A program made the translations under genes and the position numbers. From Acidobacteriota bacterium (GTDB taxonomy: Bacteria > Acidobacteriota > UBA6911 > RPQK01 > DATIPO01), in assembly GCA_035471925.1 (NCBI GenBank), contig DATIPO010000203.1, positions 15,426 to 79,425 on the forward strand: 64,000 nucleotides of DNA, given 5' to 3'. Numbering within the stretch: position 1 is the stretch's first letter; every line of letters begins with the position of its first letter. The notes beneath the pieces were generated by a model. That model had not been told where the DNA came from and searched no databases. It saw only the letters and a program-made list of their open reading frames with translations. Of this stretch, positions 22,658 through 44,231 are shown one piece after another.

Positions 22658-23104
22658 CTATTCGAAGTAGCCGTAGGCCTTCCAGGCGTCCACTTCCGAC
22701 TGCGTGGGGATCGAGACATTCTCGACTCCCATCTGGCGAAGCAGGTCGAAGACTTCCACCATCTCGGAATAAGGGACATCGGGCTTAGGCCGGATGATGA
22801 AGGGCTTGCCGGGATTGGTGTCGAGGACGGTCTGAATATAGCCGCCCAACTGGGCCAGCCCCATCACCTGATTGTTCACCGCGTATTGTCCCTCTCCCTC
22901 AATCTTGATGAGAACCGACTCTTCAGGTTGCACATTGGTGGGATCTTGGTCGGGATATCCGAAGCGCAGACCCTGCCGCGAAGTGAAGACGGCCGTCAGC
23001 ATGAAGAAGATGATGAGCAGGAAGGCGATGTCGGCCATCGAGGAGGTGGGGATCTCAGGCACGTTGTTGAGACGCCTGCGCTCTTCCAAGCGTGATCTAG
23101 CCAT
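22658..23104 (-). CDS. exbD: biopolymer transport protein ExbD/TolR
   Basis: ADIAFLLIIFFMLTAVF TM helix and periplasmic domain. Start at MARSRLEE; overlaps the upstream exbD copy. Confidence 0.75.
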   Translation of the reverse strand: MARSRLEERRRLNNVPEIPTSSMADIAFLLIIFFMLTAVFTSRQGLRFGYPDQDPTNVQPEESVLIKIEGEGQYAVNNQVMGLAQLGGYIQTVLDTNPGKPFIIRPKPDVPYSEMVEVFDLLRQMGVENVSIPTQSEVDAWKAYGYFE

Positions 23105-23591
23105 TGCCGTCCTCCTCTTGGGTTGGGCTGGGGCTTTCCGGGGACTCCTCATCAGGGGCCGCGATGCCTCCGCTCACTTCCTGAGTCGTGAGGAGGCCGA
23201 TGTCCTGAGCGCCCCCATTGCGCAGGGCTTCCAGAACGCCGTCGATGAAGCGGTACTGTACTGACCGGTCGGCCTTGATGACGAATTCGGTTCCGGGGAA
23301 GTCTTGCAGCAAGGCCTCGGTCCTGGTCTGAAGCTCGTCCATCGACAGGACCGGTTCGGAGGCGCTTTCACCGTCCGAGAAGGCCACCGTTCCATCGGCT
23401 GTGATGGCCACGATGGCCGGGTTCTCACGTACCTGCTCCCGGGTCACCGAGGACGGCATGGTGACTTGAGTGCGTTCGGGCGAGAAGCTTGTGGTGAGCA
23501 TGAAGAAAATGATGAGCAGGAAGGCGATGTCCGCCATCGATGCCGTCGGCACCACGGGTACGGGCTTGGCTCTGTGGATGCGCCGTTTCAT
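23097..23591 (-). CDS. exbD: biopolymer transport protein ExbD/TolR (second copy)
   Basis: MADIAFLLIIFFMLTTSF; paralog of the downstream gene. Confidence 0.75.
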   Translation of the reverse strand: MKRRIHRAKPVPVVPTASMADIAFLLIIFFMLTTSFSPERTQVTMPSSVTREQVRENPAIVAITADGTVAFSDGESASEPVLSMDELQTRTEALLQDFPGTEFVIKADRSVQYRFIDGVLEALRNGGAQDIGLLTTQEVSGGIAAPDEESPESPSPTQEEDGNG

Positions 23592-24250
23592 TGTCTCCCC
23601 GCGGCGGCCACCTTGGTCGGTGATTCTTCAATTTCGCTGAAGGTCTCGAGCAGCATGGAAGTGCTGGTTTCCATGTCCAGGGCGAAATTGGAAACGCGGC
23701 TGTTGAAGTAGTTGTAGGCGGTCTGGACGGGCAGCGCGATGGCCAGCCCGGTGGCGGTGGTGATGAGGGCCTGCGAGATGCCCTGTCCCACGGCCTGGGG
23801 ATTGCCCAGTCCTTGTTCGGAAAGGGCGTCGAAGGCCAAGATCATGCCCACCACGGTTCCCAGGAATCCGAAGAGGGGAGCAATGTTGGCCACTGTCAGC
23901 AGCACCCACAGTCCGCGCTCCAATTTGGAAACCTCGTGCAGTGCCACCGATTCCATGGCCTTCTCGATCTCTTCGTTGCTCTTGCCATAGCGCAGAAGTC
24001 CCGACTTGAGGTTGGTGGCCACGGGATGGTCGTAGCTTTCGCAGATTTCCACGGCCTGGCGCAGGTCGCCGCCCAGCAACGCCTCTCTCACTCCCGAAAA
24101 GATCTCGCCCGTGTCGCCCTTGATCCGCGCATAGGCGATGGCGCGCTCGATAATGTAAAACAGTCCGACCAGGGAACAAATGATCAAGGCGTACATCATC
24201 GCCCCGCCGTCCTGGATCAGATTAAACAACCAGCCAATCGCTAGTACCAC
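23588..24250 (-). CDS. exbB: MotA/TolQ/ExbB proton channel
   Basis: Three TM helices; ...ANIAPLFGFLGTVVGMILAF...ALITTATGLAIALP signature. ATGA overlap with exbD. Confidence 0.8.
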   Translation of the reverse strand: MVLAIGWLFNLIQDGGAMMYALIICSLVGLFYIIERAIAYARIKGDTGEIFSGVREALLGGDLRQAVEICESYDHPVATNLKSGLLRYGKSNEEIEKAMESVALHEVSKLERGLWVLLTVANIAPLFGFLGTVVGMILAFDALSEQGLGNPQAVGQGISQALITTATGLAIALPVQTAYNYFNSRVSNFALDMETSTSMLLETFSEIEESPTKVAAAGRQ

Positions 24251-24508: not shown

Positions 24509-25366
24509 TTACCCGGCTTCGGGGTTGACGGGTTCGTCCTCCAGCCCCGCCAGAGCAGAGCGGGCCGCTTCCTGCTCGGCCTCTTTCTTGGAGAGGCCTT
24601 GGCCCTTGGCCAGCGAACGTCCGGCTGAGAGCACTTCTACCACGAATTCCTTGCGGTGATCGGGGCCGCTTTCGGCCACAACACGATAGTCTGGCTCGCT
24701 GCGTCCGATGCTGTGCAGTTCCTCTTGGAGGGCGCTCTTAAAGTCCTTGACGCGCACCTTCTTAGGATCGATTTCATCAAGAAGGGGCCCGAAGCGCCGC
24801 AGCAAGAAGCGGCGGGCCGACTCAAGGCCTCCGTCCAGATAAATGGCCGCCGTTACACTCTCGAAGATGTCGGCCAGGATGGCCCGCTTCTGACGTCCGC
24901 CGGTCTTTTCCTCGCCGTGGCTGAGCAGCAGGTAATCGCTCAGCCCCAGTTGGCGCGACAGCCGTCCCAGTTGGCGGGCCGAGACCAAGTGGGCTTTGAG
25001 TTTCGAGAGACCGCCCTCCCGCAAGGTCGGATAGGCTCTCAGCAGCGCCTCGCTGACCACCAGGCCGACGACCGTATCGCCGAAGAATTCCAGGGCTTCG
25101 TAATCTCCTCCCTCGGTAGGATTGCCGGCATCGTGCAGATAGGAGCGGTGGGTCAGAGCCTGATTAAGAAGGGCGTAGTTCTTGAACCGGTAGCCTAAGG
25201 TCTCTTCCAGTCGGCGTAGAGAAGCCGTGCGTTCGGCATCTGGCGGAGCCGCCGTCATGGTGGCCGTTTCAGCCTTGCTCAGCGATCCCCGAAATTTCTG
25301 CAGCCAGTTCATGGACCCTTCCCGGACGCCTCCGGACAGAGTGCGCCGGGAGGCCATCACACTCAA
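24509..25366 (-). CDS. rnc: ribonuclease III
   Basis: RNase III signature ERLEFLGDTV-like (ALEFFGDTVVG) and C-terminal dsRBD. True start may be the internal ATG (MNWLQKF, ~25312). Confidence 0.8.
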   Translation of the reverse strand: MSVMASRRTLSGGVREGSMNWLQKFRGSLSKAETATMTAAPPDAERTASLRRLEETLGYRFKNYALLNQALTHRSYLHDAGNPTEGGDYEALEFFGDTVVGLVVSEALLRAYPTLREGGLSKLKAHLVSARQLGRLSRQLGLSDYLLLSHGEEKTGGRQKRAILADIFESVTAAIYLDGGLESARRFLLRRFGPLLDEIDPKKVRVKDFKSALQEELHSIGRSEPDYRVVAESGPDHRKEFVVEVLSAGRSLAKGQGLSKKEAEQEAARSALAGLEDEPVNPEAG

Positions 25367-37499: not shown

Positions 37500-37764
37500 C
37501 GGCAGGGCGGTTATCCCCTCCATTGTGCGATTTGCCCCAGGGCACGCCCGAGCCCGAACTGGGGAGCCGCGATGCTGGAAGCGGTAGACACCGCCAATGT
37601 TTCATTGCCGCCGCTCCGCATGACCAGCATCGGCTTGTCCTCGTCAGTCTTGCCTGGCCTTTCGCCCGTTTCTGTCGGGCACCCCTTCACGCCGTAATGG
37701 CTCCATGATTGCTTGCCTGTTTCTTGGGTTACTCAAGACACTATTGCTCCCGAGGAGGAGCCTC

Positions 37765-38457
37765 ATGAGATATTCGAAATTGCTCGCCTGTTCGTTGTTC
37801 GCGATGGCCTTGGCGCTCTCGCTGATCGTCGTGGCAGCCCAGTCCGAGGGTAAGGCCTGCCCCTATCAGCCGACCGTCCAGCAAGAGCAGCCGCAGGCGC
37901 AGCCTGCACAGGGCCGGCCCATGTACGGAAGACAAGGCCAGGGGCAACGGCATCGTCACGGACAGGGCCATCATGGACAGGGCGCGGGTCAACGCTGCGA
38001 TAATCCCAATTGCCAACACCGCGGAGCGGGTCCAGGCCAATGTCCGGATTGTCCTCAGGGGATGATGAACGATCCTGACCATCAGGACTTCCGCTTCTTG
38101 CTCGACAACCGCCAAGCCATCGACCGCCAAGTGCACCAGTTGGAGAATGGGGTGGAGACTCTGACCGAGTCAGACGATCCTCAGGTGGCGGCCCGCATAC
38201 GCAAGCATGTCAGGGCCATGTACCAGCGCCTCGAAGAGGGGCGTCCGATCCATGCCCGTGACCCGCTTTTCGCCGAAATCTTCCGCCATGTCGACCAGAT
38301 CGACCTGGAAATGGAGGACACTGAGAAGGGGATCCGCGTGCGGGAGACCGCGGCCGATCCGCAAGTGGTCAAGCTCATCAAGGCCCACGCCGAGGTGGTC
38401 AACCTCTTCATCGAGAACGGCCACGCCGAGATGCACCGCAATCACGAGGTGCCCTGA
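37765..38457 (+). CDS. secreted protein with a His/Gly/Gln-rich, Cys-containing N-terminal region and a helical C-terminal domain
   Basis: Signal peptide MRYSKLLACSLFAMALALSLIVVAAQSEG, then ...GQGQRHRHGQGHHGQGAGQRCDNPNCQHRGAGPGQCPDCPQG... GAGGAGG RBS. Confidence 0.5.
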   Translation: MRYSKLLACSLFAMALALSLIVVAAQSEGKACPYQPTVQQEQPQAQPAQGRPMYGRQGQGQRHRHGQGHHGQGAGQRCDNPNCQHRGAGPGQCPDCPQGMMNDPDHQDFRFLLDNRQAIDRQVHQLENGVETLTESDDPQVAARIRKHVRAMYQRLEEGRPIHARDPLFAEIFRHVDQIDLEMEDTEKGIRVRETAADPQVVKLIKAHAEVVNLFIENGHAEMHRNHEVP

Positions 38458-38626: not shown

Positions 38627-39679
38627 TCACTCGCTGGAAGAGCGGATCCCGGGAAGATGGCCGAAGACTTCTCGAAAGCGCGCCGAACATCGAAAAGAGA
38701 CTCGATCGCCGTCGTTTCCCGGAATGAGGAAACAAGCCGCGATGCCGCGCTCCTGGGCCCATTTCGAGCCCTGATCCGTTCCCATCACGTAGAGAGCGGT
38801 GGAGAGAACGTCGGACGCCAGCCCGCTTTGGTGCCACACCACCGTCGATCCCCGAAAGGACACGGGCCTGCCCGTGCGCGGATCGATGATGTGGGAGACG
38901 GCCTCCCCGTCCACGGTCAGATCGCGCTCAGAGCCACCGCTGACGGCCAAAGAGCCGGCCGCCAGCTTAAGTGCAGTGAGGGTCTGCTGCCGGTGGCGGG
39001 GATGGGCAACCCGGACGTCCCAGTCCAGGCCTCGGGGAGGGTTGCCCCACACCCCGATCTGCCCCCCCAGGTCGGCCATCCAGCCCTTCAGGCCCAGCTT
39101 TTGGGAGTGGGCGAAGGCCCGGTCGAGGGCTTCTCCCTTGCCGAAGGCGCCGGCGTCGATGAGCACCTCACGCTCTTTGGCCACGGTACAGGCCTGGGGA
39201 TCGAAGCGAATGTGCCGGAGTCCGCTGGCCTGCAAGGCCGCCTCCAGTTCGGGGGCTTGGGCCAGATGTCCTCGGCCGCGGATGTCCCAGGCTTCGAGGA
39301 GGCGTCCGATGAAGGGGTCAAAAGCGCCCCCGGTCTCGTAATGCCAGCGGCGCAGTTCCTCGAAAAGCCGGCAGAGTCCTGGATGGAGGGCCAAGGGCTG
39401 AAAGAGTGGTTGCTGGTTGAGGAGGCTGAGACGGCTATTGGGGCGCCAAGTGCTCAGCTCGCCCTCGCTTGCCTCCAGCAGGGTCAACAAGCTTTCAAGT
39501 CCCCTGATGGCGGACTCGCGATCGGCAGCCACGGCCGCCAGACGGCAGCGCGTCCCCATCAGATAGACTTGCCGTTCCACCACTACTTGGGGCCCCTCGC
39601 GGCCTCCCTGGGCGGCCGGCTGCGAGGCGAGAAATCCGATGCTGATCCAGGTCAGGACTAAGGCAGAGGATAAGCGCAT
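38627..39679 (-). CDS. apbE: FAD:protein FMN transferase (ApbE family flavin transferase), secreted or lipoprotein
   Basis: ApbE motifs (GGAFDPFIGRLLEAWDI; IDAGAFGKGEALDRA; SVSGGSERD). Start at MRLSSALVLTWISIGFLAS. The ORF-track extension to 40105 was rejected because it overlaps the upstream gene. Confidence 0.75.
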   Translation of the reverse strand: MRLSSALVLTWISIGFLASQPAAQGGREGPQVVVERQVYLMGTRCRLAAVAADRESAIRGLESLLTLLEASEGELSTWRPNSRLSLLNQQPLFQPLALHPGLCRLFEELRRWHYETGGAFDPFIGRLLEAWDIRGRGHLAQAPELEAALQASGLRHIRFDPQACTVAKEREVLIDAGAFGKGEALDRAFAHSQKLGLKGWMADLGGQIGVWGNPPRGLDWDVRVAHPRHRQQTLTALKLAAGSLAVSGGSERDLTVDGEAVSHIIDPRTGRPVSFRGSTVVWHQSGLASDVLSTALYVMGTDQGSKWAQERGIAACFLIPGNDGDRVSFRCSARFREVFGHLPGIRSSSE

Positions 39680-39696: not shown

Positions 39697-40176
39697 TCAG
39701 GCCGCAATGGCCTTGTTTCCCCGGCGGGAGCTGTGCTTGAGGTTCGAGGCCGGACGCCAGTTGCGCAGACCTACGATGAGGTGGACCAAGTAGACCAGCG
39801 CGAACAGTCCGCCGCTGACCAGGTGGACGATCAGAGCCGCCTGCAGGACCGTTTCCTGAGTGACCACTTGAAGGGCGTATCCGCTGATGGCCATGAGGGG
39901 GAAAACCAGCAGGCTGGCCAATCCGCTGCGGCGTCCCTGGGGCTGCCCGTTCCGCAGCTTGCGCATGACGTGGCTGTTGAAGAAGACCCCGAAGACGAAG
40001 AGCAGCAGGGGCGAAAACAAAATGTGGCCGTGCAGCATCAGGTTCTGCCAGGGATGGTTGATGATGCTGAAAGGATCTTCGCTCTCCAGCAGATACTTCA
40101 TCCAAAAGTAGAGGACGCCGGTGGCCGTCACGCCCAATGTCAGCAAATGGAGAGACCAGCGGTAAAAGCTTTTCAT
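39697..40176 (-). CDS. small 4-TM membrane protein with conserved His residues (DUF4405-like, candidate b-type haem-binding electron-transfer subunit)
   Basis: 159 aa, four hydrophobic helices with His in or near them (HLLTLGV..., HPWQNLMLHGHILF..., NSHVMRK, HLVSGGLFALVYLVHLIVG). AGGAGG RBS. ATGA overlap with the upstream FMN-binding gene. Confidence 0.5.
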   Translation of the reverse strand: MKSFYRWSLHLLTLGVTATGVLYFWMKYLLESEDPFSIINHPWQNLMLHGHILFSPLLLFVFGVFFNSHVMRKLRNGQPQGRRSGLASLLVFPLMAISGYALQVVTQETVLQAALIVHLVSGGLFALVYLVHLIVGLRNWRPASNLKHSSRRGNKAIAA

Positions 40177-40790
40177 CGGCCTCCTCCTTTTCCGGGCGCG
40201 GGTCGGCCCGGCTCCTGCCGCAGGACCTGATCGATGGCCATGACCCTGCGGACGGCCCGGTTGACAGCCCGCGCCGTCAAGGTGGCGCCGGCCAGCGGAC
40301 GGATGTCGCGGTTGAGGTTGAGGTCGCCCTTCAGTGCTTTGCCGTGATACTGACGCCGCCATTCCTCGGGCGCTTCATATTCGGGCGGTTCCAGGAAGGC
40401 CGTTGTTTCAATCCGTTTCAGTGTGCCGTCGGCGTTCAGGCAGATCAGCAGAGATTCCTTCTTGGTGCGCACCACGTGGGTGTCGACGTAGGCCCGTCCG
40501 ACTTGCTGGCCGTCGCGGGAGGCCAGGTAGCGGGCGATCAGCGCGGTAGGTACCTCCACGCCCGCTATCTCTGCGGCCTGGTTCTGTTGGTCTTGGCTCA
40601 GGAAAACCCGCTCTGACCTGAATTCGGCCTGGGGATAGGCGGCCTTCAAAGCTTCCTGGCGGCTGATGGCAGCCCATGCCGGAAGCCAAGCCGTCAGCAG
40701 GACGGCAGCCAGGGCCGCCGTCCGCCGAAGGACATTGGGACGGACGGCTTCCCCGTCCTGTGGCTGTCGGAATGGGCTTTCGGCTTTCAA
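40173..40790 (-). CDS. FMN-binding domain protein (FMN_bind, RnfG/NqrC-like) carrying the ApbE flavinylation motif
   Basis: C-terminal DIRPLAGATLTARAVNRAVRRV matches the D-x-x-S/T-G-A-T-L/I-T-S/A flavinylation and FMN_bind signature. Start set at TTG 40790 (GGGAGA RBS), giving a signal-like MKAESP...RRTAALAAVLLTAWLPAWAA. The ATG at 40865 would overlap the porin gene by 53 bp. Confidence 0.65.
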   Translation of the reverse strand: MKAESPFRQPQDGEAVRPNVLRRTAALAAVLLTAWLPAWAAISRQEALKAAYPQAEFRSERVFLSQDQQNQAAEIAGVEVPTALIARYLASRDGQQVGRAYVDTHVVRTKKESLLICLNADGTLKRIETTAFLEPPEYEAPEEWRRQYHGKALKGDLNLNRDIRPLAGATLTARAVNRAVRRVMAIDQVLRQEPGRPAPGKGGGR

Positions 40791-40812
40791 GTCGTTGTGT
40801 CTCCCGATTCGA

Positions 40813-42246
40813 TCAGAAGGAGTATCCCAACGCCACGTTGAACTGGTTAACTCCCGTGTCGGCATCGTTGCTGATCCACTGATAATCGGCCTTGAGGACG
40901 ACGTTGTAGATCGGCTTGTACTCCAGGCCCAGGGTGTTGAAGACGCGTTCGCGGGAAGGATCAGGCAGGAATCCCGCTAAGACCTCGTCCTGCGTGTCCA
41001 GGAACTCGAAGCGGTAGTAAGGCATGAGGCTGGCGGTCTCGTTGAACTCGTTGAGCACGTTGTAGCCCACATGAAAATAGCCGCCCTGCATGCTTTCGGC
41101 CACCGAATCGTCGCCGCTCAGTCCCAGGAACTGATTGAGCTCCACTGCGTCGTCGATGCTCGACTTGGCGTAGAGGCCGCGTATGTCGAATCCCCTCAAC
41201 TGGACCTGTCCGTGCAACTCGCCGATAGTGGTGGCCACGTCGAAGTCTTGCCCTTCCAGGACGATCTCCCCTTGTCCCGAACCGCCACGGTAAATGGAGC
41301 CTCCGAAGAAGATTCCCGGGGTGGGGTTGACGTCGAGGCGTCCTACAAAGGCCAGGTTGTCGGCCCGGGCTTCGGAGCCCTTCTGGCGTCCGCCGCGGAA
41401 ACCGTTGGAACTGAACTGGCTGGCGCGGAGTCCGTTGACCACGTAGGCGCGGTAGTCGAAGATCCCCGCCGAGCCGTGGAAGCCGAAGCCGTTCTCCCGC
41501 CATGTGGTGGGAATGATGCGCTGCTCTACGACGGGACGGCGGGCGCCCACGAAAACGTTGGGCTCGTGGAATTCGTTGACCAGCCCCATGGGAACCAGCA
41601 GAATGCCCCCTCGCAGATTGAAGCTTTCGTGGGCAAGATAGTCGATGTAGGCGAATTCCACCGAAACGCTGCCTTCGACGTCGGTCGACCCATGTTCGAC
41701 TTCGATCTCTGAGTTGAAGAGGAACTTGTCGTTGAAGCGGTAGCCGGCATAGAGGATGGCCCGCAAAAAGTCGAGTCGCGTGGTCTGGTCGACGTCTTCA
41801 CCCGACTCGTTTTCATTGGCGAAGTTCTCATAGAGCATCTCGCCGTATCCGGCCAAGGCCACGCCCCGCCTCTTGCGGTAGACCGATGCGGCCGAGGGAG
41901 CGATGCCCAAGGACTTGGCGTCCTCGTTCGTGACCACTAACTCCTCTTCGCCGCTGCGTACCTTCTCAAGCTCTTCGGCCAGGACGTCGACTTGACGGCG
42001 CAGTTCATCGACGTCCACCGTCATTTCATCAGCGGGTTTTTTCTCAGCTTCTTTCTGGTCCTGCTTTTTCTCTTGCTTCTCGGCGGATTCCTCCTCTTGC
42101 TGCTTCTCTTCCAGCCGTTTGAGGCGCTTCTCGATTTCTTCCAGCTTCTTCAAAACCTCCTGATTGAGGTCCTGGCCTTGAAGGGTGACCGGAGCCGCCA
42201 AGAAAAGGGCGGCGATACAGACCGTTACAATCCACTTTCTTGCCAT
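40813..42246 (-). CDS. outer-membrane beta-barrel porin with N-terminal coiled-coil (phosphate-selective porin O/P-like family)
   Basis: Signal peptide MARKWIVTVCIAALFLAAPVTLQG, Lys/Glu coiled-coil, alternating beta-strand pattern, C-terminal ...VALGYSF (terminal Phe). Confidence 0.65.
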   Translation of the reverse strand: MARKWIVTVCIAALFLAAPVTLQGQDLNQEVLKKLEEIEKRLKRLEEKQQEEESAEKQEKKQDQKEAEKKPADEMTVDVDELRRQVDVLAEELEKVRSGEEELVVTNEDAKSLGIAPSAASVYRKRRGVALAGYGEMLYENFANENESGEDVDQTTRLDFLRAILYAGYRFNDKFLFNSEIEVEHGSTDVEGSVSVEFAYIDYLAHESFNLRGGILLVPMGLVNEFHEPNVFVGARRPVVEQRIIPTTWRENGFGFHGSAGIFDYRAYVVNGLRASQFSSNGFRGGRQKGSEARADNLAFVGRLDVNPTPGIFFGGSIYRGGSGQGEIVLEGQDFDVATTIGELHGQVQLRGFDIRGLYAKSSIDDAVELNQFLGLSGDDSVAESMQGGYFHVGYNVLNEFNETASLMPYYRFEFLDTQDEVLAGFLPDPSRERVFNTLGLEYKPIYNVVLKADYQWISNDADTGVNQFNVALGYSF

Positions 42247-42457
42247 GATTCAAGTGTTCCTTTCCGGAAAACGGCGAATTGACTCCCTTCTGAGGACGGG
42301 CCTATACTGGAAGCACGTGAAATTTTGGGTTGAGACCGTTTCACGTTGGGGCGCGTCATGTTCCAGGCGCGTCCCTTTTCTTATCCACCGCTCGTCTAGA
42401 ATTTCTGGCCTTTCGGCCTTCCTGCGAAGACGCATAAAAGCGCCCTCGTTTTTTTGT

Positions 42458-42480
42458 TGTTGAGAATCATTCTCAACAAG
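42458..42480. promoter_or_regulatory. perfect 23-bp palindrome TTGTTGAGAAT-C-ATTCTCAACAA; candidate Fur-family (Zur/Fur-like) operator
   Basis: An 11-1-11 perfect inverted repeat in the divergent intergenic region between the porin (start 42246, minus strand) and tandem ZIP metal transporters (start 42725, plus strand). Core TGAGAATCATTCTCA resembles 7-1-7 Fur-family boxes. Confidence 0.5.
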
Positions 42481-42724
42481 ACGGGCCAAAGGGTACTAGC
42501 TTGGTCCCATTTATGTCAAGCCCCTTTATGGAGAAGCGGGTGCCCCTTCTTTCCAGCGGCCACGAGGAATCGGTCGAGGGGGCTTGAGGCGGGCTCAGTC
42601 GCTCTTTTTCTGAGCTCCTCCGGGCTACCCATGAGGCCAGCGATTGCGGGCCGATGGGGCCTGTCAGGGCTGTTTGACGGCTGAGGGCTCTTTTCCATTC
42701 GAGGCCGCTTTGTTAAATAATGAA

Positions 42725-43477
42725 CAGATGGATCAGCAACCGGTCCTTGTCGTGCTCTTGTACAGTGGTTTGGCGGCTGCATTCGCCAGCCTGGGCGCTT
42801 TGCCCTTTTTGCGGCGGGGCGGGCCTGGACGTTTTTCCATCGGGTCGGCCTACAGTTTCGCCTCCGGTCTCATGCTGGGGGCCGGATACCTTCTGATGAG
42901 CGAAGCGTTGGTTCACGGCAAGGCCGACCTCGTCGTCGTCGGCGCAGCCTTGGGTGTGGGATTCACCTGGTGGACGCAATCTTACGCCGGCACCGAGGAA
43001 CTGCGGCGCGATGCCCAAGCCAAGCCCGACCGTCCGGAATACGGGTATAAGATCCTGCTTCAGAACGCCCTGCATTCTGCTGCTGAGGGCGTGGCCATTG
43101 GAGCCTCCATGGCCTACGATCTTGGTCTCGGCGTTTTCATCGCTTTAGCCTTAGCCGTTCACAATGTCGGCGAGGCCACGGCTTTGACTTCGCTCTTGAC
43201 GCAGCGAGGAGTCACGGTGCGCCAGTCGGCTGGACTGTGTGTTTCGGTCAAGACGCCTCAGGCGGTTTTCGCCATCACCGCCTTCGCCCTTACTTCGGCT
43301 CTCCGCCCCTGGCTGCCTCTGGCTTTGGGATTGGCGGCCGGAGCCATGGTTTACCTGGTCATTTCGGAATTGTTGCCTTCCTCATACAAGCGCGCCCCCA
43401 AGTCGGCGGTGGCCTTGTTGGTGAGCATCAGCGCGGGAGCCGTGATACTGCTCAGGTCGTTCTTCATGGCGTCCTGA
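42725..43477 (+). CDS. ZIP family divalent-metal (zinc) transporter
   Basis: Eight TM helices; HSAAEGVAIG and HNVGEATAL metal-binding motifs typical of ZupT/ZIP. Confidence 0.7.
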   Translation, partial: QMDQQPVLVVLLYSGLAAAFASLGALPFLRRGGPGRFSIGSAYSFASGLMLGAGYLLMSEALVHGKADLVVVGAALGVGFTWWTQSYAGTEELRRDAQAKPDRPEYGYKILLQNALHSAAEGVAIGASMAYDLGLGVFIALALAVHNVGEATALTSLLTQRGVTVRQSAGLCVSVKTPQAVFAITAFALTSALRPWLPLALGLAAGAMVYLVISELLPSSYKRAPKSAVALLVSISAGAVILLRSFFMAS

Positions 43478-43499
43478 GGGGTGTTGGGAGGATCCGATC

Positions 43500-44231
43500 A
43501 TGTACTACGAACTTGGGATCGTTTTCCTGGCTGGACTGATCACCGCCGTGGCAACCGGACTCGGTGCCATCCCCTTCGCCTTCATGCGTACGGTATCGGG
43601 ACGCACCCTGGGGCTGGCTAACGGAGTGGCTTCCGGACTCATGCTGGGCGCCAGCTTCGGACTCTTCAGCGAAGGCAGCGTCTACGGACTGTGGCAGACT
43701 GTGGCGGGCGCGGCCGTGGGAGTGGCCTTCGTGTTTTTCGGCGAGCGCTTTTTGCAGGACAAGGAGGTCGAATTCGGCGACATCCGGGGCGCGGGAGCCC
43801 GGCGCATCCTGCTCATCATCGCCATCATGACGCTGCATTCCTTCTCAGAGGGCGTTGCCGTCGGCGTCAGTTTCGGGGGCGGTGAGAAGCTGGCGGCGTT
43901 GATCACCATCGCCATCGCCGTCCACAACATCCCTGAAGGGCTGGCCATCAGCGCCGTGATGCGTCCCCGCGGCAGCAGCGTGTGGGCGTGTGCCGGGTGG
44001 AGCGTCTTTTCCTCCCTTCCCCAGCCCCTGATGGCGGTTCCGGCGTTTGCCTTCGTCGAGGCTTTCCGAGCCGTTCTTCCCTACGGACTGGGCTTCGCGG
44101 CCGGCGCCATGGTCTACATGGTGTTTCTGGAACTCCTGCCGGAGGCCTTCGAAGAGGCCAATCCCAGCCGGGTGGGCTTGTTGGTCAGTTTGACTTTAGG
44201 GGCCATGATCCTCTTCCAGAAATACCTGTAA
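43500..44231 (+). CDS. ZIP family divalent-metal (zinc) transporter, tandem paralog
   Basis: HSFSEGVAVG and HNIPEGLAIS motifs, ZupT-like. Confidence 0.7.
   Translation: MYYELGIVFLAGLITAVATGLGAIPFAFMRTVSGRTLGLANGVASGLMLGASFGLFSEGSVYGLWQTVAGAAVGVAFVFFGERFLQDKEVEFGDIRGAGARRILLIIAIMTLHSFSEGVAVGVSFGGGEKLAALITIAIAVHNIPEGLAISAVMRPRGSSVWACAGWSVFSSLPQPLMAVPAFAFVEAFRAVLPYGLGFAAGAMVYMVFLELLPEAFEEANPSRVGLLVSLTLGAMILFQKYL

What the first reader, a model, noticed from the sequence alone, without database searches (positions are those of the whole stretch)
42458..42480. Perfect 23-bp palindrome upstream of tandem ZIP transporters: candidate Zur/Fur-family operator
TTGTTGAGAAT-C-ATTCTCAACAA is a flawless 11-1-11 inverted repeat, far longer than chance in a 64-kb window. 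It sits in the divergent region between the porin operon and two ZIP (ZupT-like) metal importers, which are classical Zur targets. The core TGAGAATCATTCTCA follows the 7-1-7 architecture of Fur-family boxes. It could co-regulate both divergent transcription units, metal uptake and the flavin-redox operon.
Basis: seen in the sequence. Interest (0 to 1): 0.5.

Follow-up and report, generated by a model that had tools for sequence, protein, structure and literature searches.

The report
Iron-repressor (Fur) operator of porin operon
The perfect 23-bp palindrome is real and is most likely the binding site of an iron-sensing Fur-family repressor just downstream of the promoter of a porin/flavin-reductase iron-uptake operon; this is an ordinary kind of switch, shown here for a large, unstudied acidobacterial gene family, and it is not a zinc (Zur) site for the neighbouring ZIP transporters.

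Summary
The palindrome TTGTTGAGAATCATTCTCAACAA is present at 42457-42479, one base left of the stated coordinates. It is the only such site in the window. Length alone is only mildly unusual (about 4% of composition-matched random windows), but conservation shows it is functional. The 17-bp core is identical in the nearest relative. A matrix built only from orthologous loci scores it 25 bits, against 8.6 for the next best site in the window. Boxes of the form TGAGA-N5-TCTCA are about 100-fold enriched upstream of homologues of the porin gene (68 sites in 26 kb vs 10 in 388 kb). They sit at a fixed 41-44 nt from a TTGAC -35 element; the window's distance is 44. The same promoter-operator module, including a 22/23 match to the palindrome, precedes fur-family genes that head fur-ApbE-porin and fur-FTR1-FtsX-FtsX-ABC-ApbE-porin operons. 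Other copies precede feoB and fur. Exact copies in other phyla flank fur genes, TonB-dependent receptors, FbpA-type proteins, FTR1 and FeoB. No zinc genes recur, and ZIP orthologues elsewhere lack the box. Verdict: a Fur-type iron operator of the porin operon. Co-regulation of the ZIP pair is possible but unshown. New member of a known kind. A conserved candidate antisense sRNA lies next to it.

The parts
42457..42479 (.). Operator: perfect 11-1-11 palindrome with 7-1-7 core TGAGAATCATTCTCA at 42461-42475. It corresponds to 'box 2', the promoter-proximal box of orthologous loci.
   Evidence: core identical in L001; family-wide motif; distance to -35 is 44 nt; 41-44 in 28 orthologous cases; module alignment; 25.0 bits with a matrix built from other loci.
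42514..42519 (-). Predicted -35 hexamer TTGACA of the porin-operon promoter (read on the minus strand).
   Evidence: Conserved in L001. It aligns with TTGAC(G/C/A) of 21 two-box loci and of the fur-first operons. This is a prediction; no transcript data exist.
42490..42495 (-). Predicted -10 hexamer TACCCT (18-nt spacer). It implies a transcription start near 42483, which places the box core at about +8 to +22.
   Evidence: Positional equivalence with TATAGT/TATATA (porin loci) and CAGAAT (L175, L205, L208). The hexamer is weak (3/6), so this is inference.
40813..42246 (-). First gene of the regulated operon: an outer-membrane porin with a signal peptide, an N-terminal coiled coil and a 16-stranded barrel.
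   Evidence: No Pfam or NCBIfam hit. 4157 homologues. AlphaFold model pLDDT 69. Foldseek top hits are OmpM1, OmpC/F, PorB and OprP, with E down to 3e-14.
40173..40865 (-). FMN-binding-domain protein, presumably secreted. The start codon is uncertain because the ORF overlaps the porin stop.
   Evidence: Pfam FMN_bind E=7.5e-4, 20.5 bits against a curated cut-off of 22, so just below threshold. A 206-aa gene occupies the same position in L001. A gene of 180-210 aa follows the porin in most loci.
39697..40176 (-). Small membrane protein (159 aa) that is cytochrome b561-like. Inferred to be the transmembrane electron carrier.
   Evidence: Pfam Ni_hydr_CYTB E=9.5e-6, 25.9 bits against a curated cut-off of 30.1, so below threshold. 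Start refined to an ATG with a GGAGGAGG ribosome-binding site. A 157-aa gene occupies the same position in L001.
38627..39679 (-). ApbE (FAD:protein FMN transferase), the last gene of the operon.
   Evidence: Pfam ApbE E=9e-57. NCBIfam ApbE. It is the most constant neighbour of porin homologues: 28 of 216 flanking genes scanned. Start refined.
42728..44231 (+). Tandem ZIP1 (42728-43477) and ZIP2 (43500-44231), divergent from the operator. Possible co-regulated inner-membrane Fe2+ permease. This is an inferred link and is not shown.
   Evidence: Pfam Zip. ZupT-like, below the curated cut-off. Adjacency to the box was seen only here and in L001. In L004 a ZIP pair follows feoAB. No box upstream of five other ZIP pairs.

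Best explanation
The palindrome is a Fur box, the operator of an iron-responsive Fur-family repressor. It lies 14 nt downstream of the predicted -10 element of the promoter that drives the minus-strand operon (porin, FMN-binding protein, cytochrome b-like protein, ApbE), at roughly +8 to +22 of the transcript. When iron is sufficient, a metal-loaded Fur dimer bound there would block RNA polymerase. When iron is scarce, the operon is derepressed and makes an outer-membrane channel plus an ApbE-flavinylated extracytoplasmic electron-transfer module, plausibly a ferric reductase. The divergent ZIP pair may supply the inner-membrane Fe2+ permease and may share the operator. Shown here: the motif, its conservation, its fixed position relative to a conserved promoter, and its association with fur and iron-uptake genes. 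Inferred: protein binding, the identity of the metal, the transcription start, the biochemical role of the operon, and any effect on the ZIP genes.
For: (1) The core TTGAGAATCATTCTCAA is identical in the closest relative, and the symmetric position +/-9 changed on both arms together (G..C to A..T). (2) TGA[GA]A-N5-T[CT]TCA occurs 68 times in 26 kb upstream of porin homologues and 10 times in 388 kb elsewhere in the same loci. 42 of 67 loci carry it, or 44 after correcting over-extended start calls. (3) Geometry: 21 loci have two boxes 62-66 bp apart bracketing TTGAC-N17-TATAGT. The distance from -35 to the proximal box is 41-44 nt in 28 cases, 44 in the window and 42 in L001. Box 1 lies upstream of the promoter and is not transcribed, so the element acts as DNA. 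(4) The same module precedes Fur-family genes. In L175 the order is TTGACA-N18-CAGAAT-N13-TTGTTGAGAAACATTCTCAACAA (22/23 identical), then fur, ApbE, porin. In L205 and L208 it is fur, FTR1/FtrD, FtsX, FtsX, ABC, ApbE, with a porin homologue following in L208. (5) Other copies in these loci lie 8 nt upstream of a fur gene (L159) and 55 nt upstream of feoB (L196). L195/196 read feoB, dtxR-like, fur, box, porin. (6) Exact TTGAGAATNATTCTCAA sites in other phyla are 107/122 intergenic. Their neighbours include FUR (11), TonB-receptor Plug (7), FbpA-type SBP (6), FTR1 (5), ECF sigma (3), ZnuA (3), FeoB (2) and Nramp (1). (7) Fur-family genes beside the porin score best on Fur models: 104-117 bits against 37-55 for Zur. 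(8) Literature: ApbE/FMN-binding clusters are linked to iron assimilation, and some are Fur-repressed (PMC8238504). A Fur-regulated hypothetical porin with two upstream FUR boxes was predicted in Geobacter and Desulfuromonas (PMC545781).
Against: No experiment supports it: there are no binding or expression data. Only one site exists in the 64-kb window, and no fur gene is encoded there, so the regulon could not be reconstructed in this genome. The regulator encoded behind the near-identical L175 box is ambiguous by HMM (PerR 73, Fur 67, Zur 58 bits, all below curated cut-offs). The predicted -10 (TACCCT) is weak. The centre of the orthologous boxes (yyNrr) is more variable than in classical Fur boxes. 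The regex used for the enrichment count was chosen after looking at the data.
Confidence: 0.78

Rival explanations
1. Zur (zinc) operator whose main targets are the two ZIP importers. Zn-Zur would bind the palindrome and repress zinc uptake.
For: ZIP/ZupT proteins are usually annotated as zinc importers. The core differs at only one position per half-site from actinobacterial Zur boxes (TGAAAAT; my own knowledge). Three of 117 genes next to exact copies in other phyla are ZnuA-type. The L175 regulator is not clearly Fur (Zur 58 vs Fur 67 bits).
Against: The box tracks porin and fur promoters, not ZIP genes. ZIP was not among the 25 commonest Pfam families in the genes flanking the porin in 67 loci. 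Five other ZIP-pair loci lack any such box and lack zur or znuABC. Partner genes are FTR1, feoB, TonB-dependent receptors and FbpA-like proteins. No adjacent regulator scores best as Zur. One ZIP pair sits directly after feoAB.
Confidence: 0.08
2. Operator of a dedicated Fur-family paralogue that senses something other than iron (manganese or peroxide, i.e. PerR/Mur-like) and controls only this flavin/porin module.
For: The L175-type regulator scores marginally best on a PerR model. It is encoded inside the operon in some lineages. Box centres differ from the classical Fur AATnATT.
Against: The co-regulated genes are iron transporters (FTR1/FtrD, feoB). No catalase, peroxidase or Mn-transporter neighbours recur. 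All HMM scores are below cut-offs, so subfamily calls are weak.
Confidence: 0.1
3. The palindrome acts as an RNA hairpin at the 5' end of the porin mRNA (stability or translation control), or as a terminator, rather than as a protein-binding DNA site.
For: If transcription starts near 42483, the palindrome is transcribed. It folds to a 9-10 bp hairpin of -12 kcal/mol, z = -3.0. The one substitution between the two genomes preserves symmetry.
Against: Orthologous loci conserve the half-site sequence TGAGA/TCTCA itself, not merely pairing. They place an identical box upstream of the -35, where it is not transcribed. There is no T-run after it. The hairpin is weak.
Confidence: 0.03
4. Chance palindrome, or the site of an unrelated regulator family such as TetR-like.
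For: About 4% of random windows contain an equally long perfect palindrome. 7-1-7 palindromes are also used by other repressor families (my own knowledge).
Against: Conservation, the 100-fold enrichment, fixed promoter geometry and repeated linkage to fur genes.
Confidence: 0.02

Closest known systems
Classical Fur box (E. coli 19-bp GATAATGATNATCATTATC as quoted in PMC545781; the 7-1-7 reading TGATAATnATTATCA is from my own knowledge of Baichoo and Helmann 2002)
   Same: A 15-bp 7-1-7 inverted repeat with TGA-N9-TCA. 12 of 14 specified positions are identical (TGAGAAT vs TGATAAT). It overlaps a promoter or transcription start, lies upstream of iron-uptake genes and of fur itself, and is often present in two copies.
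   Different: Position 4 is G/C instead of T/A. In relatives the central five bases vary (yyNrr). The palindrome extends to 11-1-11 here. Where two boxes exist they are about 64 bp apart and bracket the promoter, rather than overlapping or lying side by side.
Delta-proteobacterial dFUR box WTGAAAATNATTTTCAW and the predicted Fur-regulated porin 'psp' of Geobacter metallireducens and Desulfuromonas (Rodionov et al. 2004, PMC545781)
   Same: A hypothetical porin predicted to be under Fur control, with two boxes far upstream of the start codon (-259/-160; -139/-86) and a proposed role in ferrous iron uptake. Some of the present loci carry exactly TGAAAATGATTTTCA (L126, L130).
   Different: Homology between psp and this porin family was not tested. 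The acidobacterial operon adds FMN-binding, cytochrome b-like and ApbE genes. The dominant half-site here is TGAGA.
Zur boxes (Gram-positive TAAATCGTAATNATTACGATTTA as quoted in PMC545781; actinobacterial TGAAAATGATTTTCA from my own knowledge)
   Same: The same family of repressors and the same 7-1-7 architecture. ZIP/ZupT genes are Zur targets in some bacteria.
   Different: The gene context here concerns iron, not zinc. The box is not conserved with ZIP orthologues. Neighbouring regulators do not score as Zur.
ApbE-dependent extracytosolic flavinylation clusters implicated in iron assimilation (Meheust et al. 2021, PMC8238504)
   Same: ApbE plus a secreted FMN-binding protein plus a small membrane electron carrier. 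There is a link to FTR1-type transport, and Fur repression is reported for related PepSY-like clusters.
   Different: The paper's text does not mention a porin ('porin' occurs 0 times). The membrane component here is a small cytochrome b561-like protein rather than the PepSY-, MsrQ- or NapH-like components described there.

Membership tests
Fur-family operator (Fur box) | Inverted repeat of 7-1-7 type with TGA-N9-TCA and an A/T-rich centre | tested here: met
   TGAGAAT-C-ATTCTCA; 12/14 match to TGATAATnATTATCA.
Fur-family operator (Fur box) | Overlaps or abuts the promoter or transcription start of the repressed gene | tested here: met
   14 nt downstream of the predicted -10. Distance to the -35 is 44 nt, against 41-44 nt in 28 orthologous cases. 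The promoter is predicted, not mapped.
Fur-family operator (Fur box) | The same motif recurs upstream of metal-uptake genes and of the fur gene itself (autoregulation) | tested here: met
   Upstream of fur in L159, L175, L205 and L208; of feoB in L196; and of fur-FTR1 operons. Cross-phylum exact copies sit next to 11 FUR genes, 7 TonB receptors, 5 FTR1 and 2 FeoB.
Fur-family operator (Fur box) | Several sites per genome forming a regulon | tested here: inconclusive
   One significant site in 64 kb. The rest of the genome was not available, and the source genome was not among the rows returned by the capped genome scan.
Fur-family operator (Fur box) | Bound by a metal-loaded Fur-family dimer; expression responds to the metal | not testable with these tools
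   Needs EMSA or footprinting and transcript measurements.
Zur regulon operator | Found upstream of zinc-uptake or zinc-sparing genes (znuABC, zur, ribosomal paralogues) | tested here: not met
   None of these recur in 67 porin loci or in the fur-first operons. Only 3 of 117 neighbours of exact copies are ZnuA.
Zur regulon operator | Conserved upstream of orthologues of the proposed target (ZIP pair) | tested here: not met
   Present only in the window and L001. Absent from L003, L004, L209, L210 and L211.
Zur regulon operator | The linked regulator belongs to the Zur subfamily | tested here: not met
   Adjacent regulators score best on Fur models (104-117 bits vs 37-55 for Zur) or are ambiguous between PerR and Fur. 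All scores are below curated cut-offs.
General (16-stranded) outer-membrane porin | Signal peptide and a 16-strand beta-barrel resembling solved porins | tested here: met
   AlphaFold model, barrel pLDDT mostly 70-88. Foldseek hits OmpM1, OmpC/F, PorB and OprP at E 3e-14 to 1e-10, TM (target) 0.57-0.71. No sequence-level family hit.
Fur-regulated porin 'psp' (Rodionov 2004) | Sequence homology to Geobacter/Desulfuromonas psp | not tested
Only the regulatory architecture was compared.

The most novel reading that the evidence does not exclude
The palindrome is one part of a conserved three-part switch. The first part is a Fur paralogue with TGAGA-N5-TCTCA specificity, encoded as the first gene of the operon in some lineages. 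The second is a promoter whose spacer carries its own small inverted repeat. The third is a conserved cis-antisense small RNA transcribed across the porin leader towards the box. Together they would give two-layer iron control of a previously uncharacterised outer-membrane porin / flavin-reductase iron-uptake route that uses a ZIP heteromer as its Fe2+ permease.
Probability: 0.2. Interest if true: 0.55.

Novelty: new member of a known kind. Interest (0 to 1): 0.3.

Why it matters
The result gives a testable regulatory and functional assignment (iron-repressed, Fur-controlled) to an unannotated porin family with more than 4,000 members and to its ApbE/FMN-binding partners in Acidobacteriota, a phylum with almost no experimentally studied regulation. 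It provides a usable Fur-box model for these genomes (AAAnTGAGAyyNrrTCTCAnTTT, often two boxes about 64 bp apart around the promoter). It cautions against reading ZIP adjacency as evidence for zinc control. The principle itself, a Fur box in front of iron-uptake genes, is textbook.

Tried and rejected
(1) Rfam at gathering thresholds gave nothing for the window or for six related loci. (2) The source contig could not be found by exact ZIP2 look-up. The porin look-up returned only a 3.2-kb Logan contig, so the rest of the genome and its fur gene(s) could not be examined. It was therefore used only for cross-phylum context, not for a regulon. (4) Footprinting through ZIP1 failed because only one relative exceeds 60% identity. 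Switching to the porin solved this. (5) My greedy ORF caller chose wrong-strand shadow ORFs in high-GC DNA and missed the L175 fur gene until the sequence was read directly. (6) No degenerate upstream 'box 1' exists in the window (best score -14 bits). (7) No convincing sigma-70 promoter for the ZIP genes was found near the box. TTCTCA-N18-TACTAG is weak. The promoter-like TTTCCA-N18-AATAAT just before the ZIP1 ATG is not conserved in L001. (8) A 61-79 aa ORF in the porin leader (called in L212) was rejected as coding: GC3 is 0.51, and the alignment with L001 has indels that are not multiples of three. (9) Profile search of the porin against PDB sequences matched only coiled coils.

Full report
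OBSERVATION. The window contains TTGTTGAGAATCATTCTCAACAA at 42457-42479. This is a flawless 11-1-11 palindrome, one base to the left of the stated coordinates. It is unique in the window, and its 15-bp core TGAGAATNATTCTCA has no second copy even with three mismatches. The window is 62.5% G+C and the site is A+T-rich. Even so, 4.3% of 300 composition-matched random sequences had a perfect palindrome with arms of 11 or more and a spacer of 0 or 1. Length alone is suggestive, not decisive.

CONTEXT. On the minus strand lie four genes: a 477-aa protein (40813-42246), an FMN-binding-domain protein, a small cytochrome b561-like membrane protein and ApbE. The FMN_bind and cytochrome b Pfam matches fall just below the curated cut-offs. 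On the plus strand are two ZIP genes. The 477-aa protein has no Pfam, NCBIfam or PDB sequence relative. Its AlphaFold model shows a signal peptide, a coiled-coil stalk and a 16-strand barrel. The model matches OmpM1, OmpC/F, PorB and OprP, so 'porin' is justified. The source is an Acidobacteriota MAG. No Fur-family gene was seen in the window.

CONSERVATION. Only one relative has ZIP1 above 60% identity. That genome (L001, GCA_035471785.1) has the same divergent arrangement. In the aligned intergenic regions the 17-bp core is identical, and positions +/-9 changed together from G..C to A..T. The porin, by contrast, belongs to a family of more than 4,000 proteins. A metagenome scan returned 80 loci at 43-63% identity. 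In the 400 bp upstream of the porin start, TGA[GA]A-N5-T[CT]TCA occurs 68 times in 26 kb, against 10 times in 388 kb of the remaining DNA. It is present in 42 of 67 loci, or 44 after correcting four over-extended start calls. The consensus is AAAnTGAGAyyNrrTCTCAnTTT, and some lineages use TGAAAATGATTTTCA. A weight matrix built from these sites alone scores the window's palindrome at 25.0 bits. The next best position in 64 kb scores 8.6, and shuffled windows reach at most 14.0.

ARCHITECTURE. Twenty-one distinct loci carry two boxes 62-66 bp apart. Between them lies a canonical promoter pointing at the porin: box 1, 7 nt, TTGAC(G/C), N17, TATAGT/TATATA, about 13 nt, box 2. The distance from TTGAC to the proximal box is 41-44 nt in 28 cases, 44 nt in the window and 42 nt in L001. 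In the window the corresponding elements are TTGACA (42519 to 42514), an 18-nt spacer and TACCCT (42495 to 42490). This predicts a start near 42483 and puts the box core at about +8 to +22. The block that the window and L001 share to the right of the palindrome is therefore the porin promoter. The window lineage has no box 1. Because box 1 in other loci lies upstream of the promoter and has the same sequence, the element works as DNA and not as an RNA hairpin. As RNA, the window palindrome folds to only -12 kcal/mol.

WHICH REGULATOR. In L175 the same module (TTGACA-N18-CAGAAT-N13-TTGTTGAGAAACATTCTCAACAA, 22/23 identical to the window's palindrome including its flanks) is followed by a Fur-family gene, then ApbE, then the porin. 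Orthologues of that regulator in L205 (89% identity) and L208 (71%) sit behind the same module. They head operons that run fur, FTR1/FtrD-like, FtsX, FtsX, ABC ATPase, ApbE. In L208 a porin homologue follows (54% identity); the L205 locus ends before that position. Other copies lie 8 nt upstream of a fur gene (L159) and 55 nt upstream of feoB (L196). L195/196 read feoB, dtxR-like, fur, box, porin, an unassigned 247-aa gene, ApbE. Fur-family genes beside the porin score best on Fur models (104-117 bits, against 37-55 for Zur). The L175 regulator is ambiguous (PerR 73, Fur 67, Zur 58). All of these scores are below the curated cut-offs.

Of these sites, 107 of 122 are intergenic. Genes starting within 200 bp include 11 FUR, 7 TonB-receptor Plug, 6 FbpA-type binding proteins, 5 FTR1, 3 ZnuA, 3 ECF sigma factors, 2 FeoB and 1 Nramp. 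None of ten of those FUR genes scores best as Zur.

THE ZIP SIDE. Tandem ZIP-ZIP pairs are conserved in all seven genomes examined, but in varied contexts. None of the five loci outside the window's lineage has this box, any Fur-type 7-1-7 palindrome upstream, or zur/znuABC neighbours. One pair follows feoAB. ZIP was not among the 25 commonest Pfam families in the genes flanking the porin. I found no convincing ZIP promoter. The right arm of the box could act as a weak -35 (TTCTCA-N18-TACTAG; N16 in L001), which would allow shared repression, but this is conjecture. A functional link is still plausible. The window's operon lacks the FTR1 permease that the fur-first operons have, and the ZIP pair could fill that role. 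This is inference.

COMPARISON WITH WHAT IS KNOWN. The site fits the Fur-box definition in sequence, position and gene association. Binding and metal response cannot be tested here. Rodionov et al. (PMC545781) predicted a Fur-regulated hypothetical porin (psp) with two distant upstream FUR boxes in Geobacter and Desulfuromonas, and proposed ferrous-iron uptake as its role. Meheust et al. (PMC8238504) linked ApbE/FMN-binding clusters to iron assimilation and noted Fur repression of related clusters. Two literature searches for Acidobacteria/Acidobacteriota with Fur terms found nothing relevant. The finding is therefore a new member of a known kind. The half-site variant TGAGA and the promoter-bracketing pair of boxes are minor variations.

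SIDE FINDING. Inside the 237-nt porin leader, on the opposite strand, lies a well-formed promoter: TTGACT-N18-TATACT at 42279-42308 in the window, L001 and L152, and TTGCGC-N17-TACAAT in at least 12 other loci. It is followed by a 69-113-nt unit that ends in a strong intrinsic terminator. The consensus fold has 24 pairs, 9 of them with compensatory changes. It also has G-U pairs that are valid only on this strand. Single-sequence folds give z = -4.1 and -3.5. No Rfam family matches. This looks like a conserved cis-antisense small RNA that ends about 75 nt short of the Fur box. It was not pursued further.

VERDICT. It is probably wrong about zinc, and it remains unproven for the ZIP genes. Confidence is 0.78 that this is a Fur-type iron operator of the porin operon. 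Interest is 0.3.

Noticed in passing
window 42279-42383 (+); L001 9712-9815; opposite strand of the porin leader in L129, L140, L141, L145, L149, L151, L152, L153, L155, L158, L160, L161, L164: Candidate conserved cis-antisense small RNA inside the porin 5' leader. It has a strong promoter (TTGACT-N18-TATACT or TTGCGC-N17-TACAAT), a 69-113-nt body with a covarying fold and strand-specific G-U pairs, and an intrinsic terminator that ends 30-75 nt before the Fur box. No Rfam match.
   Followed up: partly
window 42496-42513 (porin promoter spacer); same position in L128-L164, L175, L205, L208: A small inverted repeat is conserved between the -35 and -10 of the porin/fur promoter: CGACC-N5-GGTCG, or GGACC-N5-GGTCC in the fur-first operons, and degenerate (GGGAC-N7-GTACCC) in the window. 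It could be a second regulator's site. Unexplained.
   Followed up: no
L128, L129, L134, L138, L139, L141, L143-L146, L149, L151, L153-L155, L157, L158, L160, L161, L163, L164, L179: Two Fur-type boxes 62-66 bp apart (mode 64, about six helical turns) bracket the promoter, which suggests cooperative binding or looping. The window's lineage has kept only the downstream box.
   Followed up: partly
window 40813-42246 (-); P0121-P0240: The porin belongs to an unannotated family of more than 4,000 proteins, mostly from Acidobacteriota. It has a coiled-coil stalk plus a 16-strand barrel, and OmpM1 of Veillonella is the top structural match. It is almost always next to ApbE.
   Followed up: partly
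L205 7001-13610; L208 7001-14492: Operons that run fur, FTR1/FtrD-like, FtsX, FtsX, ABC ATPase and ApbE (followed by a porin homologue in L208) combine an Ftr1-type iron permease with the flavinylation enzyme.
   Followed up: partly
window 42728-44231; L001, L003, L004, L209, L210, L211: ZIP genes occur as a conserved tandem pair of two diverged paralogues in every genome looked at, which suggests a heteromeric transporter. In L004 the pair follows feoA-feoB, with an Uma2-family gene inserted between the two ZIP genes.
   Followed up: partly
window 37705-38457 (+): Secreted 250-aa protein with a Gln/His/Gly-rich and Cys-rich segment (…GQGQRHRHGQGHHGQG…CDNPNCQH…CPDCPQG…) and no family match. 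It sits just beyond ApbE and could be a periplasmic metal-binding protein.
   Followed up: no
L155 982-1050: A 36-bp segment carrying the Fur-type box (TGTCGAGATGAGATCGATTCTCAATTTTCGC…) is tandemly duplicated, giving three boxes in that locus.
   Followed up: no
L002 and L212 (both from run SRR9656207): Contigs matching the window's genome (100% porin) and its 81%-identical relative both come from the same sequencing run, so the two related populations coexist in one sample.
   Followed up: no
window 23097-24250 (-): By eye, without a family scan, the translations printed look like an ExbB/ExbD-type (MotA/TolQ-like and ExbD-like) gene pair. The weight matrix finds no significant Fur-type box nearby (best 3.5 bits at 24758).
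   Followed up: partly
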